A program made the position numbers and the translations under genes. Positions 27,116-33,962 of a stretch of DNA of 64,000 nt are shown here, piece after piece. Source of the stretch: Promethearchaeota archaeon (GTDB lineage Archaea > Asgardarchaeota > Lokiarchaeia > Sigyniarchaeales > SOKP01); contig JBHLLT010000004.1 in assembly GCA_048938855.1 (NCBI GenBank), forward strand, positions 64,001-128,000, read 5' to 3'. The notes beneath the pieces were generated by a model that had not been told where the DNA came from, did no database searches, and worked only from the letters and a program-made list of their open reading frames with translations. Position 1 is the stretch's first letter. Every line of letters starts with the position of its first letter.

Positions 27116-27478
27116 ATGACTTGTATCCATGGATTAGATGAAATAAATTGCCCTACTTGTCGGATTTTGAAATCATCATTGCCATTAAATGGGGTAAGTT
27201 CAAAAAAATCGATATTGCCAACTTTTAACACGTTATTATCTAGAAAAAAGATTAATCATGAAAAAGAATTAATTGATGAACTCACCCCTTTAAAGAAAAA
27301 TATGCATCCTCCCAATTTCATCACAAAACCCAGTTTCATTAATGAGATTCCTAATTTTAAAAATAAATTATTCTTAGAAAGATCTAAAGAACTCGATATT
27401 TCTAAAGAGGATAATTATGGGATCACCAAAAAAATTCCTCTCGAAAGCTCAGAATGGAAATTTGAAGAGGAAGAATAA
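27116..27478 (+). CDS. Hypothetical protein with N-terminal Zn-binding motif
   Basis: CIHG....CPTC. Confidence 0.65.
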   Translation: MTCIHGLDEINCPTCRILKSSLPLNGVSSKKSILPTFNTLLSRKKINHEKELIDELTPLKKNMHPPNFITKPSFINEIPNFKNKLFLERSKELDISKEDNYGITKKIPLESSEWKFEEEE

Positions 27479-27772: not shown

Positions 27773-28453
27773 ATGGCACAAATGGAAATCACTTGGCTTG
27801 GGCATGCTGCCTTTAAAGTAAAAACACATAGTGGAAGAATTATATATCTGGATCCCTATCAAATTAAAAAAGGAGAAGAAAAAGCCGATATTATTATTTC
27901 CACGCATTCTCATGGGGATCATTTTGATTCAAGTAGCATTAAAAAACTTATAAAGGAAGATACAATTGTTATCGGTCCTGAAAGTATTGCTGATAGCTTA
28001 AAGAAATTTGATGGAACTGCTTTGAAACTAGGTGAATCATTTGACTATAAAGATCTCTCAATAGAGTTAATTCCCGCTTATAATATTAAAAAACCAAACC
28101 ATCCAAAAAGGAATGAATGGGCGGGAATAATAGTGACATCCGAAGATAAAAGTGTATACCATGCAGGAGATACTGAAAGAATCCCCGAAATGAAAGATTT
28201 AGCAAATCGAAATATAACTGTTGCTATGATGCCTTGTGGTGGAACATATACCATGGATTTTGATGAAGCTACAGATTCAATTGTTGATGTGAAGCCTAAA
28301 ATTGCAATTCCAATGCATAATTTACACGTAATTAATGTGTAAAGGCAAAATTGGAGCAAAGATCTCAGCAAATTCAGGGAATTACTCAACGAAAAGGATC
28401 CAAGCATAAAGGTAGAAATATTAGAAGAAGGCGGTAAACCTTTAATAATTTAA
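27773..28453 (+). CDS. MBL-fold metallo-hydrolase, interrupted by a putative 30-nt intron (join 27773-28319, 28350-28453; 216 aa)
   Basis: WLGHA, THSHGDH, YHAGDT, PMH; the frame continues after the internal TAA as WSKDLSKFRELL...LII*; SD GAGGTGA. Confidence 0.85.
28320..28349 (+). other. Putative BHB-type mRNA intron
   Basis: TCCAA/TTGGA outer helix, 3-nt bulges TAA and AAA, TGCA/GGCA central helix (3 of 4 paired), TTTACAC/GTGTAAA inner helix; removal restores P-M-H-N-W. Confidence 0.7.
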
Positions 28454-28993
28454 ATAATTCTTTTTTTTTTTTAATCTTGTTAATTATAACCTGAAGTGCA
28501 TCGCTCCTAAATTCTGATTTTTTAGCTATATTAAAGACAAGTTTATTGGTATTATTTCGATTATGATAAATTTTCAAAATTAACCACTAAGGTTCTTAAT
28601 AATAAATTAAACAAGTCTGAATGTGAGATGATTATTAAAGATTTTGACTTTTTAATAGAAAAGTTAAAATTAATTCCTTAAAATGAAAACGTTCTTTTCA
28701 ATTTCCCTCATCTTTCTAATTCAAATGTCTAAAATCCCTCACAAACGTAAAGAGATAATCAGTAGATTTAAACATAGTATTATAATTATTTTTAAAAAAA
28801 TGTTTTTGAGCCTAAATGAATTAAAGTTGAATTTTGAAGATTTTTTATGCAATCTTGTATTAAATTGAAACTATCCTCGATTCCATTGTTTACTTTTACC
28901 GTATAAAAGAAAGATTTATATATTTGCAACAGAAATTATATCACACTTAAATAGGAATTCAAGGTGATTAAAAAAAAGTAACTATTTAAGGCA

Positions 28994-29707
28994 ATGGAAA
29001 TAGAGAGCAACAATGAAAGATATTATCTCATTATTGCTGGGATTCTGGTCTTTACTGTATTATCTATTTTTGTTGTACTTGTATTGGGATTTGGGGGCCA
29101 TCTTATGTCTAATTTGAATATCATTCCTTCAAATAATGGCGTTTTTCCTTTAGACTCAAAAGATGATTTTTCTAATAATGCCGGAACTATTGAAATCGGG
29201 TCAGTACCAGAAAAAGGCGTTTTCGGACCTTTTGACACCAAACCCGGTGAGATGAAAATCTTTGATCAATATCTTCCTGTAGATCCACTACCATTAAAAA
29301 TCACTGATGACTATCTAAATGATTATTGGGTAGTTGTGGGCACATATGGTGGTTATTCATGGATAAATGGATACATTAAGGTTATGCAAACCAAATCAGA
29401 TGAAAATCTTTGGTCTAATTTAGTAGGTTATATTAAAATAACCGCTACAGAAATTGAAGGTCCACATGGCTGGACTACTTACAATCTCACATTTTCAATT
29501 GATGGCGATCATCCTATCATTCTAGACAGTAACCATCCCCCAGTCTCTCCTCTTGGAGACTTCTGGGTCAATGGACCAGACAATCTAGATAAATGGGTAT
29601 GGTTAAAGGTTGATACCACATGGGAAGGCTGTCCATTACCCGAACAACAATTTATGGTAATACTGACACAAAAAGTAATTTTTCCGGAGTCCCCAACTCC
29701 AAAATAG
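28994..29707 (+). CDS. Hypothetical membrane-anchored extracellular protein
   Basis: N-terminal TM followed by a Trp/Pro/Gly-rich beta domain. Confidence 0.65.
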   Translation: MEIESNNERYYLIIAGILVFTVLSIFVVLVLGFGGHLMSNLNIIPSNNGVFPLDSKDDFSNNAGTIEIGSVPEKGVFGPFDTKPGEMKIFDQYLPVDPLPLKITDDYLNDYWVVVGTYGGYSWINGYIKVMQTKSDENLWSNLVGYIKITATEIEGPHGWTTYNLTFSIDGDHPIILDSNHPPVSPLGDFWVNGPDNLDKWVWLKVDTTWEGCPLPEQQFMVILTQKVIFPESPTPK

Positions 29708-29990
29708 TGAATTCTATTCACTTCTTGAGTGCAATAATATTTAATATGCTTTTAAGCTGCTGTGATCGAATTTACTCTTTACCAACGATGAGATCGACCT
29801 TATTCAAATGATTAACCTCGATCTGTATAAGAAAAATCTCGATCCACAGTTTCAATATCACCTTTCTTTTTTTTTTTGTTTTAAATATTGTAAAAAAAAA
29901 CTTATGAACTAATAATTAATTCTTTGTATCGTTGTCTCATTTTTAAAAATACATAAAAATAAATAGCCTAAACTAGATTATTAAGTTGGT

Positions 29991-30626
29991 TTGAGGACAA
30001 ATATCATATCTCAGAAATATGGTTGGTATTTAGCAAGAATTAATGCGAGTATTGAAAAATTTGCGAATATAGTCGCTACTAGTTTTAAAACTATAGGAAA
30101 ATACAATCTAAAACCTGGTCAATATATAAAAATCAGAAATTTCAATAACGTACACTCTGAGATTGAATATTTGGATAAATTCATCTTATTACCTTATTTT
30201 AAAGAATTTATTGAGAATTATTTAGTATTACACGACGTCATTCAATCAATCACAAAAACAACATATCATTACGTCGATAAGGAATATTTTAATGTGGTTA
30301 CTAAATTACTAAACACCTTTTTTCAAGAACGAAATAATAAAAGGGGGGTAGTGATAAAAGAATTCCTCGAATTTGATAACCAAGAGACATCCCAAATGGA
30401 TATCGCCATGCCTGAATCATGGTTAAATGAAAATAGCGTAGATTTAGGAGATATTGTGCTCCTAAGAAATGATGTGGCTTCTCCCGTTATTTATTAGTTT
30501 GATCAGAGTCAGCCTCTTCCTCCAGGATCTTCCCTACAGATACCTAACTAAAAAATATTTCCAGCAACCATTGAAGATGTGACAACTACAAGGCATTATA
30601 TTATGAAAAAATTTTCACCTACCTAG
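29991..30626 (+). pseudogene. Probable degraded gene
   Basis: Coding-like sequence continues in frame past TAG 30495-30497 and TAA 30549-30551. Confidence 0.45.
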
Positions 30627-30767
30627 TAATAGTTAGTAATTTCTTCAATTTTGACTTGATATTTAATTGTCTATTATAATAGGGCTATCTTAAGCAAATG
30701 TCAAATAATTCAAATGGTGCATTGAATTAATTATAACTTTATAAATAGTTGCAACCTATTAAAATAC

Positions 30768-32039
30768 ATGTCGAAAGTAGACGCATTTATTAAAAAAAAA
30801 GATGAAGAATACGAGGAAAAAACTCTAAGATCTAAACGATACCAATGGTACATAGTTATTTTCATGGGATTAGTAGGTTTTCTTGATAACAACCTAAATT
30901 TAATGGAAGGTCAAGTTCTACCTTTTATACTTGATGAATTAATTCCTTGGATAGCTGATGATACTGCCCAAAGATTTTTCTTTGGTATATGGCAAGGAAT
31001 TTTTGGGATAGCAACATTTTCGGTCTTCATATTATCTTGGTTTACAGATGCGTTTGGAAGAAAAAAAGGAACATTCGTATTATTGCTTTTAATGGGAATT
31101 CCAGCAATTTTGATAGTTCTCTTAACACCAACCATTTGGAGTTTTTACGTTTTATATACTATCCTTATAACCGGTACAGTAAGTAATTTATGGGAGATAC
31201 CTGTAAGTGAGGAATCACCTGCTAAGAAAAGAGCTTTATATGGAGGTATTGCAACCTTAATAAGCCTTATTCCGATTGCTGCTCTTATAGGAGATGACAT
31301 TGCAGATGCATTAGGTTGGAGATGGAGTTATGGTATATTCTTTTTTGTTATGATAGTACTATTAATTATGCTATATTTCATGAAAGAACCTAAGAGATGG
31401 GTTGATGCTAAAGAAAAAGGTAAAGGCTATCTTAAAATGAAACAAGCGTTAAAATCATTCAATAAAAAAGATTGGACATATGCCTTAATGTCATTTGTAG
31501 TTTATGGTATATGGGCAATTGGTTTAAAAATAGGAAACACATGGGCACGCGAATACTATATTGCCATTGCGTCTCCCTGGGTAGCTCAATGGAGTATGAT
31601 TATCATGATCGCAGGTTTTATGCTTTTATTAGGTGCCATAGTATCTGGTATTGTTATGGAGAGGGTATCAAGAAAAGTGACTCTGATTTTTAGTACTATC
31701 GGTTCATCATTGGGATTTATTATATTTGGACTTACTAGCCATCCTGCTTTCTTGTGGTTAGCCTACTTCTCGATGACAGTTTTATTTACCTGGATTATGG
31801 TTTATTTTACTGAGGTATTTCGAACAGAAATTAGAACTACTGGAATGGGTATAGCTTCATTAGGTACAAGAATTTCTTATGTAACTGGTCCATTAATTGC
31901 TGCAGCATTATTATTAACAAATTGGATAATGTTCTGGGTTATTCCAGGATTACTATTATTAATTCCTCTTTTGATATTAATATTAAAACCATATGAAACA
32001 AAGGGTAAAACTTTAGAGCAAATCCAAGAAGAGAGATAA
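30768..32039 (+). CDS. MFS transporter
   Basis: DAFGRK, EVFRTEIR, ETKGKTLE. Confidence 0.9.
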   Translation: MSKVDAFIKKKDEEYEEKTLRSKRYQWYIVIFMGLVGFLDNNLNLMEGQVLPFILDELIPWIADDTAQRFFFGIWQGIFGIATFSVFILSWFTDAFGRKKGTFVLLLLMGIPAILIVLLTPTIWSFYVLYTILITGTVSNLWEIPVSEESPAKKRALYGGIATLISLIPIAALIGDDIADALGWRWSYGIFFFVMIVLLIMLYFMKEPKRWVDAKEKGKGYLKMKQALKSFNKKDWTYALMSFVVYGIWAIGLKIGNTWAREYYIAIASPWVAQWSMIIMIAGFMLLLGAIVSGIVMERVSRKVTLIFSTIGSSLGFIIFGLTSHPAFLWLAYFSMTVLFTWIMVYFTEVFRTEIRTTGMGIASLGTRISYVTGPLIAAALLLTNWIMFWVIPGLLLLIPLLILILKPYETKGKTLEQIQEER

Positions 32040-32243
32040 TTTAAAAAGGTCTCAAAAATAAATCAAATATAATTTTTTTTAATTATTTTTCTCAATTTTT
32101 AAATATTTTTACTTGTTTCTAGGAAAAATGCGTGTTTAATTTTTTTATAGGATAAGATTTTAAGCTATGGTTTTTAGAAGTATTATATAAAAATCTAAAA
32201 TATCAATAATTTTAGTAAAAACTAAAGCAATGTGTGAAGACAA

Positions 32244-33962
32244 ATGGAAATCGATGAAGATTTAATGTCAAATACTCGCGTAGCATATATTTCCATGGAG
32301 ATTGCTGTCGATTCTAATATTCCTACATATAGTGGAGGCTTAGGCGTATTATCTGGAGACACAGTACGATCTGCTGCAGATTTAGAAATACCTATGGTAG
32401 GAATTTGTTTATGTTATAGTTCTGGATATTTTTATCAGTTTTTCAATGAATTTGGAGAACAAAAAGAAAAAGAAATCGCATGGAATTTTTATTATGAGTT
32501 TGAGAAAGTAGAAAAGCCAATTACTTTGAAAATTGAGAATAAGGATGTTCATGTTAGTGCATGGTTATACCGTGTAATAGGACAATCAGGTCATGTGCTT
32601 CCAATTTACCTATTAACTACTGATGTAGAGGGAAATGAGGATTGGATGAAAAGGATGACTGGTTCTTTATATGATAGTACAAGTCGATGGAATAGAATAG
32701 TCCAAGAGATGATTCTAGGAATAGGAGGAGTAAAACTTTTAAAGTCATTGGGATACAATAATATTGAAACCTACCATCTAAATGAAGGTCATGGGTCATT
32801 TTCTACCATAGAATTATATAAGGAATTAGGGAGTATTGAAAAAGTTAAAGAAAAAGTAGCCTTTACAACCCATACACCTGTACCAGCTGGACATGATCGA
32901 TTCAGCCAAGATTTAATTGATAAAGTCTTTGAAAATAGAATGCCAAAAGAAATACGAAAGCTTGCGGATGACAACGGAGAATTTAATATGACATTCTTAG
33001 GTATGGCTTTATCAAGATATAGAAATGCAGTAGCAAGGAAACATGGAGATATCTCACGAAAAATGTTCCCTCAATATGAAATTGATTATATTACTAACGG
33101 AATTCACTTACCTTTTTGGGTTTCTAAACCATTCCGGAAGATATTCAGTAGAAAATGGCCTAATTGGAGAGCTAACCCATCTGTCCTTGAAAATGCTGTT
33201 GAATTAGATCCACTTGATATTTTTGATGCACACATCGAAAATAAATTCAATCTTATTAATTATCAAAAAGGACATTCTTGGAACCTATTGGATGAAGAAT
33301 TAACAACTATTGGTTTTGCGCGACGTTTTGCTACATATAAACGGGCAGTATTAATTTTTCATGATATAGATAGGCTAGGTAAGATAGCACAAGATCATCT
33401 TCAATTTATTTTTGCAGGGAAAGCTCATCCAAAAGATGTAGAAGGAAAGCAATATATTAAGAAGATTCATCAAGCGGGAGAATATTTGTATAATAATTAT
33501 GGTGTGAAAGTGGTAATGATGGAAAATTATAATATGGATCTTTCTCATTTACTTGTTTCTGGTGTGGATATTTGGCTTAATACACCCAATAGGTATCGTG
33601 AAGCAAGTGGAACAAGTGGGATGAAAGCGGCTCTCAATGGTGTATTGAATTTATCAGTTCAAGATGGATGGTGGTTAGAAGGCTATAAAATGAATAAATT
33701 AGCAGGTTGGGCAATTGGACCTAATGATTCTAATCCAGAAGACTCAGGAGTCTCGAATGACTGGGACATTGATTCAAATGCTCTTTATGAAATCCTCGAA
33801 AATGAAGTAATACCAACTTATCTGAACCATGATGAGTGGATCTTTAGACAACAAAATGCACTATCCCTTGCAGCCTATTTTAATACACATAGAATGATTC
33901 TCGATTATGCAGAGAAAGCTTATCGGTTAAAAAGGCAGAATAGATGGAAATATGTTAAATAA
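32244..33962 (+). CDS. glgP: Alpha-glucan phosphorylase
   Basis: YSGGLGVLSGD, HLNEGH, ARRFATYKR, EASGTSGMKA. Confidence 0.95.
   Translation: MEIDEDLMSNTRVAYISMEIAVDSNIPTYSGGLGVLSGDTVRSAADLEIPMVGICLCYSSGYFYQFFNEFGEQKEKEIAWNFYYEFEKVEKPITLKIENKDVHVSAWLYRVIGQSGHVLPIYLLTTDVEGNEDWMKRMTGSLYDSTSRWNRIVQEMILGIGGVKLLKSLGYNNIETYHLNEGHGSFSTIELYKELGSIEKVKEKVAFTTHTPVPAGHDRFSQDLIDKVFENRMPKEIRKLADDNGEFNMTFLGMALSRYRNAVARKHGDISRKMFPQYEIDYITNGIHLPFWVSKPFRKIFSRKWPNWRANPSVLENAVELDPLDIFDAHIENKFNLINYQKGHSWNLLDEELTTIGFARRFATYKRAVLIFHDIDRLGKIAQDHLQFIFAGKAHPKDVEGKQYIKKIHQAGEYLYNNYGVKVVMMENYNMDLSHLLVSGVDIWLNTPNRYREASGTSGMKAALNGVLNLSVQDGWWLEGYKMNKLAGWAIGPNDSNPEDSGVSNDWDIDSNALYEILENEVIPTYLNHDEWIFRQQNALSLAAYFNTHRMILDYAEKAYRLKRQNRWKYVK

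What the first reader, a model, noticed from the sequence alone, without database searches (positions are those of the whole stretch)
28309..28355. Bulge-helix-bulge intron in a protein-coding gene (MBL-fold hydrolase)
Seen: right after the metal-ligand motif PMH there is a 30-nt in-frame insert carrying a TAA stop, and the natural-looking C-terminus (WSKDLSKFRELLNEKDPSIKVEILEEGGKPLII) follows in the same frame. The junctions fold as TCCAA/TTGGA, bulge AAA, TGCA/GGCA (one A-G mismatch), bulge TAA, TTTACACGT/ATGTGTAAA. Established: the archaeal tRNA splicing endonuclease cuts after the second nucleotide of each 3-nt bulge. Applying that rule removes 28320-28349 exactly and gives CCA ATG CAT AAT TGG (PMHNW). 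Archaeal mRNA introns are rare, the cbf5 intron in Crenarchaeota being the classic case. Inference: EndA-spliced mRNA in an Asgard archaeon.
Basis: partly seen in the sequence, partly recalled or inferred. Interest (0 to 1): 0.85.

Follow-up and report, generated by a model that had tools for sequence, protein, structure and literature searches.

The report
Nuclease-spread mini-intron in Asgard hydrolase
A metal-dependent hydrolase gene of an Asgard archaeon is broken by a 30-base tRNA-type intron that very probably is cut out of the messenger RNA, and related genomes indicate it was spread by a neighbouring selfish DNA-cutting gene whose decayed tail still lies just downstream; no spliced RNA could be checked here.

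Summary
Observation confirmed. The bulge-helix-bulge (BHB) at 28309-28355 is real, with one A·G mismatch. Removing 28320-28349 restores PMHNW, the motif of intron-less orthologs. The host is Promethearchaeota and encodes an (αβ)2-type EndA with the broad-specificity loop, plus RtcB.

22 homologous inserts (29, 30 or 31 nt) sit at this site. Their stems covary, exon 2 is under purifying selection, and substitutions at the first and last intron base fix the junction at the EndA cut sites. This excludes readthrough, matched-codon hopping and decay.

It is intact beside an intron-bearing relative, and all 8 close homologs lie at this gene's 3' end, often with the old exon 2 displaced beyond them (WHO-like homing, ~0.8). 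Three of the 8 flank intron-less alleles, so immunity conferred by the intron is unproven (~0.5).

The papers I could search report BHB introns inside coding sequence only for cbf5. This scan noted the same intron, and nuclease-intron pairs, on other DNA before (unchecked AI notes).

The parts
27773..28319 (+). Exon 1 of an MBL-fold metal-dependent hydrolase (UPF0173/PRK00685-like), ending after the metal-ligand His of PMH plus one base
   Evidence: Pfam Lactamase_B_3 1e-27; PRK00685 matched below its cut-off; orthologs 70-92% identical
28320..28349 (+). 30-nt BHB intron with an in-frame TAA (28340-42), a 9-bp stem and a 5-nt loop
28309..28355 (+). Relaxed BHB motif: 5-bp exon helix, 4-nt central helix (3 pairs plus A·G), two 3-nt bulges. 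After splicing it leaves a 5-bp stem with a 7-nt loop, like an anticodon arm with CAU at 34-36 and the intron at 37/38
   Evidence: the anticodon-arm likeness is read directly from the sequence
28350..28456 (+). Exon 2 (33 codons after the split Asn codon, plus stop); encodes the last helix and C-terminal strands; has no start codon of its own
   Evidence: hhalign to the ortholog alignment, probability 98%, 85% identity; pN/pS 0.15; AlphaFold helix 189-198 in an intron-less ortholog
28464..28583 (-). Decayed C-terminal remnant (about 40 codons) of a convergent free-standing LAGLIDADG homing endonuclease
   Evidence: 40% identity to the intact G025 enzyme, score 79 against a null maximum of 45; pairwise E 3e-8 to homolog P0003

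Best explanation
(1) Splicing, inferred, ~0.93. The pre-mRNA folds into a relaxed BHB. The (αβ)2 EndA cuts after the second base of each bulge (28319|28320 and 28349|28350), RtcB joins the exons, and the mRNA encodes the full 216-aa hydrolase. Unspliced mRNA stops 7 codons after the His, without the last helix and strands. (2) Spread, inferred, ~0.8. The intron travelled in a homing cassette made of intron, replacement exon 2 and a convergent free-standing LAGLIDADG gene. The enzyme cut recipient alleles at or near the pseudo-palindromic PMH-NW site, and repair copied the cassette in and pushed the old 3' end beyond the nuclease gene, as WHO elements do at yeast FBA1. In this genome the nuclease has since decayed to a 40-codon tail. 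(3) The intron protects the donor allele from cutting: ~0.5. (4) The intron arose by tandem duplication of the palindromic target: ~0.35. Shown: anatomy, conservation, covariation, register, selection and gene order. Not shown: cleavage, ligation, nuclease activity. The confidence value refers to step 1.
For: 13 of 47 congeneric genomes with the gene carry a 30-nt insert at this site; the rest read PMHNW or PMHHW. Further copies occur in two other genera and five metagenome contigs. Covariation in 14 copies: 92.5% of cells paired, 6 pairs with changes on both sides, 0/500 shuffles, slid controls at most 56%. Across 22 copies there are 27 G·U against 4 A·C cells, as expected for a sense-strand RNA fold. 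Register: G031b allows only -1/0, G110 and G151 only 0 to +3, and L192 only 0, the EndA register. In all 22 copies the best-scoring BHB register gives P(M/C)HNW; this includes L191, whose flanks changed and whose BHB re-formed one base over. Copies of 29 and 31 nt shift the frame yet keep an intact exon 2. pN/pS in exon 2 is 0.15 in intron-bearing and 0.16 in intron-less copies. There are two EndA paralogs; the catalytic one aligns with A. pernix EndA over the specific loop, its Lys44 and the Tyr/His/Lys triad (role of the loop: PMC5829648). RtcB is present. Homing: an intact double-motif LAGLIDADG ORF lies convergent to the intron-bearing gene in G025. The nuclease or its remnant lies beside 7 of 17 intron-bearing copies and 0 of 41 intron-less copies above the null. 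All 8 close nuclease homologs lie at this gene's 3' end. Displaced old 3' fragments occur in 5 independent contigs and in G034, four starting at residues 183-186. The distribution is patchy (12 changes; one clade rejected, AU p = 0.0003), and there are 3'-sided mosaic tracts in G068 and G103.
Against: The central helix has a mismatch in most copies and is not the minimum-energy fold; a frameshifting 28-nt register competes. Related genomes are not independent, so the shuffle and Fisher values overstate. Three of 8 nuclease homologs flank intron-less alleles. L190 has a changed site (PCHSW), L194 has an unchanged PMHNW site, and P0009 was judged only from a 211-aa gene call. Ten of 17 intron-bearing copies show no nuclease remnant. 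Exon 2 is also more variable than exon 1 between some intron-less pairs.
Confidence: 0.9

Rival explanations
1. Translational recoding: the ribosome hops between matched AAT codons 30 nt apart, or reads through the stop.
For: AAT(T) is repeated at both junctions in this genome; there is a hairpin and a stop in between.
Against: The repeat is broken in G031b, G110, G151, L189 and L192. Copies of 29 and 31 nt cannot be read through. The stop is TAA or TAG and sits at another position in L191. Exon-exon pairing is conserved.
Confidence: 0.02
2. Inactivating DNA insertion or truncation: the protein ends at residue 189, or the gene is decaying, and exon 2 is a relic.
For: There is an in-frame stop, the distribution is patchy, many relatives lack the insert, and a distant paralog exists (34% identity).
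Against: Exon 2 is open and ends at the normal stop in all 22 copies, with pN/pS 0.15 like intron-less genes. It encodes a structured helix and strands. The insert shows compensatory changes.
Confidence: 0.02
3. DNA-level switch: the hairpin is excised from the DNA in part of the population (slippage between the AATT repeats), and only those cells make the enzyme.
For: A hairpin between short direct repeats favours precise deletion (own knowledge) and could explain some precise losses on the tree.
Against: Copies without the repeat persist. G·U pairs are tolerated and the 4-nt helix and 3-nt bulge spacing is conserved, which points to an RNA substrate.
Confidence: 0.04
4. Same splicing, different history: one ancient gain followed by many precise losses, with the nuclease only a coincidental neighbour that homes independently. 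This competes with step 2 only.
For: Intron distance correlates with exon distance (Mantel rho 0.47, p 0.03). The nuclease also sits beside intron-less alleles. cbf5 introns were lost independently in lineages (PMC2738675).
Against: The remnant is tied to intron-bearing copies (7/17 against 0/41). Identical or near-identical introns occur in genes 17-27% apart. Displaced fragments start at the intron site. No reverse transcriptase was found in this 97%-complete genome.
Confidence: 0.2

Closest known systems
cbf5 pre-mRNA BHB intron of Desulfurococcales and Sulfolobales (Watanabe 2002; Yokobori 2009, PMC2738675)
   Same: Short (16-44 nt there, 29-31 nt here), ORF-less, BHB-like intron in a coding sequence at an active-site motif; (αβ)2 EndA; lineage-specific presence.
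   Different: Different gene and phylum. cbf5 splicing was shown experimentally; this one is not. cbf5 was read as one gain plus losses; here the intron is patchy within a genus and linked to a homing nuclease.
Haloferax HVO_1309 5'-UTR BHB intron (PMC7714728)
   Same: EndA substrate in an mRNA.
   Different: It lies in the untranslated leader; here the insert breaks the reading frame.
WHO homing elements at yeast FBA1 (Coughlan 2020, PMC7282813)
   Same: A LAGLIDADG-type gene downstream of a conserved host gene; homing replaces the 3' end and pushes the old 3' end beyond the nuclease; elements then decay.
   Different: Archaeal; the nuclease is convergent with the host gene; the replacement end often begins with a tRNA-type intron; intein or zinc-finger architecture was not examined; cleavage untested.
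Collaborative homing in phages (free-standing endonuclease plus ORF-less group I intron; PMC3984707, PMC10448857)
   Same: A free-standing nuclease beside an ORF-less intron, apparently co-inherited.
   Different: The intron is protein-spliced (BHB), not a ribozyme; the locus is chromosomal; the nuclease also occurs with intron-less alleles.
Archaeal rRNA BHB introns encoding LAGLIDADG enzymes (e.g. I-ApeI, cited in PMC3984707)
   Same: A BHB intron mobilised by a LAGLIDADG enzyme.
   Different: There the enzyme is encoded inside the intron and the host is rRNA; here it lies outside and the host is an mRNA.

Membership tests
EndA-spliced (BHB) intron | Two 3-nt bulges on opposite strands around a 4-bp helix, flanked by exon and intron helices | tested here: met
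   Met in relaxed form: 3 of 4 central pairs here, 4 of 4 in G034, G151, L189 and L191; both flanking helices present
EndA-spliced (BHB) intron | Junctions after the second base of each bulge restore the conserved product | tested here: met
   Natural variants leave this as the only register among the PMH-type copies; all 22 copies give P(M/C)HNW
EndA-spliced (BHB) intron | Structure conserved by compensatory change | tested here: met
   6 pairs with changes on both sides, 0/500 shuffles
EndA-spliced (BHB) intron | Host encodes an EndA able to cut relaxed motifs, and a ligase | tested here: met
   Catalytic subunit with an A. pernix-like loop and Lys44 equivalent, a second paralog, and RtcB (PMC5829648)
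EndA-spliced (BHB) intron | Spliced RNA or excised circle observed; cleavage by EndA | not testable with these tools
WHO-like or collaborative homing element | Free-standing LAGLIDADG gene next to the target gene | tested here: met
   Intact in G025 and 8 metagenome homologs; only a remnant in the window
WHO-like or collaborative homing element | Old 3' end of the target gene displaced beyond the nuclease | tested here: met
   L187/188, L189, L190, L192, L194 and G034; none left in the window
WHO-like or collaborative homing element | The enzyme cuts the empty allele at the insertion site | not testable with these tools
   Indirect only: four displaced fragments start at residues 183-186
Collaborative homing (intron gives immunity) | The nuclease is found only with alleles whose site is disrupted | tested here: inconclusive
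   5 of 8 homologs lie beside an intron; L190 has a changed site; L194 has an unchanged PMHNW site; P0009 has no DNA
Group I/II intron or known ncRNA | Ribozyme core or Rfam match | tested here: not met
   30 nt only; no Rfam match up to E 1
UPF0173 metal-dependent hydrolase (PRK00685) | Score over the NCBIfam cut-off | tested here: inconclusive
   101 bits against a cut-off of 144, with exon 1 only; an intron-less ortholog model has TM 0.82-0.85 to 3x2z, 3kl7 and Igni18

The most novel reading that the evidence does not exclude
Free-standing LAGLIDADG cassettes create and spread protein-spliced micro-introns in Asgard mRNAs. Repair of a cut in a palindromic target duplicates it in tandem; this both destroys the nuclease site and builds a BHB that the tRNA machinery removes, and the cassette then homes with the intron as its shield. 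Support for the origin step: the consensus intron holds 9/10, 7/10 and 8/10 copies of the 10-base target at offsets 11, 22 and 30; a match of 9/10 arises in 0.2% of random BHB-compatible introns.
Probability: 0.3. Interest if true: 0.92.

Novelty: new variant of a known kind. Interest (0 to 1): 0.8.

Why it matters
In the papers I could search, EndA splicing inside a coding sequence is documented for one archaeal gene, cbf5 (PMC2738675, PMC7714728). A 2026 preprint on Asgard tRNA introns covers tRNA genes and found no general route by which the introns arrive (10.64898/2026.10.13.758758). This locus gives a second host-gene family, in the archaea closest to eukaryotes. It also gives a concrete vehicle: a WHO-like nuclease cassette seen intact, decaying and gone across relatives. 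Both steps can be tested in vitro with short substrates. In practice, annotation calls a truncated 182-191-aa protein at such loci, so Asgard proteomes contain falsely truncated genes.

Tried and rejected

Genome-wide scans: the strict BHB scans gave mostly operon junctions and chance hits, and the first filter dropped the true site. The relaxed scan ranks this site first, but lower ranks are no more frequent than in controls with a shifted cut, so it cannot count the introns of this genome.

Origin from a tRNA intron: no similar intron elsewhere in the genome by short-word blastn or by inspection of predicted tRNAs.

Other negatives: no reverse transcriptase and no intact LAGLIDADG_3 gene found in this genome (97% complete); no Rfam match; promoter scan at chance level; no displaced exon 2 in window 28470-32250.

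An apparent adjacency of two G031 contigs that would extend its nuclease remnant could not be proven. Fisher p = 0.009 for constrained flank codons (13/14 against 18/34) is not relied on, because kin are not independent.

Full report
Observation. The ORF from 27773 stops at TAA 28340-42, seven codons after the His of the PMH motif, and the same frame continues for 36 codons to 28456 without a start codon. Cutting after the second base of each bulge removes 28320-28349 and gives a 216-aa protein reading PMHNW. The region folds better than shuffles (z -3.2) and ranks first genome-wide among frame-breaking BHB hairpins. Two caveats apply. The central helix has 3 of 4 pairs and is not part of the minimum-energy fold. 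A one-step-slipped 28-nt register, about 2.3 kcal/mol worse, would frameshift.

Host and machinery. Close homologs come from Promethearchaeota MAGs. The genome has two EndA paralogs and RtcB. The catalytic paralog is closest to A. pernix EndA among solved structures (E 4e-34) and aligns over its specific loop, Lys44 and the catalytic Tyr, His and Lys. That loop allows cleavage of relaxed motifs and is reported across Asgard (PMC5829648). The genome also has many tRNA genes with introns of about 20-45 nt.

Host gene. It is an MBL-fold hydrolase. An intron-less ortholog folds with pLDDT 95.5; the part encoded by exon 2 forms helix 189-198 and terminal strands. The model matches T. maritima 3x2z, P. 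distasonis 3kl7 and Ignicoccus Igni18 at TM 0.82-0.85. The substrate is unknown.

Comparative test of the intron. Of 47 congeneric genomes with the gene, 13 carry a 30-nt insert at this position and the rest read PMHNW (two PMHHW). Across the class (127 genomes with a match) it also occurs in two other genera of the same family, one copy being 29 nt. Five metagenome contigs add four 30-nt copies and one 31-nt copy. On 14 copies the structure is 92.5% paired, with 6 pairs changed on both sides and 0/500 shuffles as high. G·U is tolerated and A·C is rare (27 against 4). Exon 2 is as constrained as in intron-less genes (pN/pS 0.15 against 0.16). The most discriminating result is the register. In this genome an AATT repeat makes five deletions equivalent. 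Relatives with a changed first or last intron base exclude all but the EndA register, and L192 does so alone. In L191 the exon flank changed to PCH and the BHB re-formed one base over, again giving the right product. All 20 in-frame copies hold a stop; the 29- and 31-nt copies frameshift. Readthrough, matched-codon hopping, decay and artefact are therefore rejected. Splicing is inferred with about 0.93 probability; no RNA could be examined.

How it spreads. The intron is scattered over the gene tree (12 changes, one clade rejected). In G025 an intact ORF of at least 896 aa with two LAGLIDADG motifs lies convergent directly after the intron-bearing gene. Its C-terminus is homologous to window 28464-28583 on the minus strand. 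The nuclease or such a remnant lies beside 7 of 17 intron-bearing copies and beside none of 41 intron-less copies above the null; G035 is borderline. All eight close homologs found by protein search lie at the 3' end of this same gene. Five independent contigs show exon 1, replacement 3' end, nuclease, then a displaced old 3' fragment; in four the fragment starts at residues 183-186, the intron site. G034 keeps a displaced fragment without the nuclease. This is the anatomy described for yeast WHO elements at FBA1 (PMC7282813), and pairing with an ORF-less intron recalls collaborative homing in phages (PMC3984707, PMC10448857). I infer, at about 0.8, that the intron of this window arrived in such a cassette and that the nuclease then decayed. 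Whether the intron is what protects the donor is open (about 0.5): three homologs flank intron-less alleles, one with an unchanged site. Some vertical descent with precise loss is also likely (Mantel rho 0.47).

Possible origin. The consensus intron resembles tandem copies of the palindromic 10-base target at offsets 11, 22 and 30. Duplication of a palindrome would by itself create the central helix and the intron stem, and the exon hairpin already exists in many intron-less alleles. This is a hypothesis (about 0.35); AT-richness and pairing constraints explain part of the match.

Other cases in this genome. Following leads from earlier scan notes, I confirmed at motif level that removing 30 nt at a relaxed BHB register restores the conserved motifs of AMP phosphorylase, UppS and RNase HII. 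For UppS, congeners split into full-length and 5'-broken matches. These were not tested as deeply.

Relation to what is known. It works like the cbf5 intron and meets every membership feature I could test, except direct observation of splicing. The papers I could search report no BHB intron in an Asgard coding sequence and no free-standing nuclease paired with a BHB intron; the library is incomplete. This scan has noted the same intron in other genomes, and nuclease-intron pairs at other genes. These are unchecked AI notes, used as leads only. I found the nuclease link at this gene from gene-neighbour comparison, after one note had mentioned such a link elsewhere; the WHO comparison came from a note and I checked it in the paper.

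Verdict: a real EndA-type mRNA intron (new host gene and phylum) carried by a WHO-like homing cassette. New variant of a known kind; interest 0.8.

Noticed in passing
G000 C74:52205 (-), C16:18887 (+), C81:88136 (+) (outside the window): 30-nt stop-containing hairpin inserts break the conserved motifs of AMP phosphorylase, UppS and RNase HII; removal at a relaxed BHB register restores them.
   Followed up: partly
G000 C49:57360-57470 (-) (outside the window): The N-terminus of ribosomal protein uL11 is in pieces separated by stop-containing inserts; the registers were not resolved here.
   Followed up: partly
G000 C6:135358 (-) (outside the window): A further 30-nt candidate with a perfect central helix that joins two coding frames; gene not identified.
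   Followed up: no
window 28590-30720: About 2.2 kb with two ORFs without Pfam or NCBIfam match (28994-29707, 29991-30497) lies between the hydrolase and the MFS gene, which are adjacent in several relatives. It is partly shared with G007.
   Followed up: partly
window 27116-27478: Conserved 120-aa ORF with an N-terminal Cys/His motif (possible zinc binder) directly upstream in nearly all relatives; no family match.
   Followed up: no
window 28355: A Gly-to-Ser change unique to this genome converts a U·G pair of the exon helix to U-A.
   Followed up: partly
L182-L186 (G070, G068, G063, G137): More distant LAGLIDADG relatives (30-35% identity) lie convergent to other genes, apparently a GTPase and an AAA ATPase; possibly the same kind of cassette at other targets.
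   Followed up: no
L073-L075, L160 (G012, G029, G063, G151): Tandem duplicates of the hydrolase gene; in G151 only the second copy carries the 29-nt intron.
   Followed up: partly
G000 contigs C11, C19, C29, C30, C37: Short contigs of about 65% G+C in a 30% G+C genome, probably contamination.
   Followed up: no
L067 (G031:C151): The second G031 copy is nearly identical to G068 around the junction and may be a contaminating contig; it still counts as a natural variant, but not as an independent genome.
   Followed up: partly
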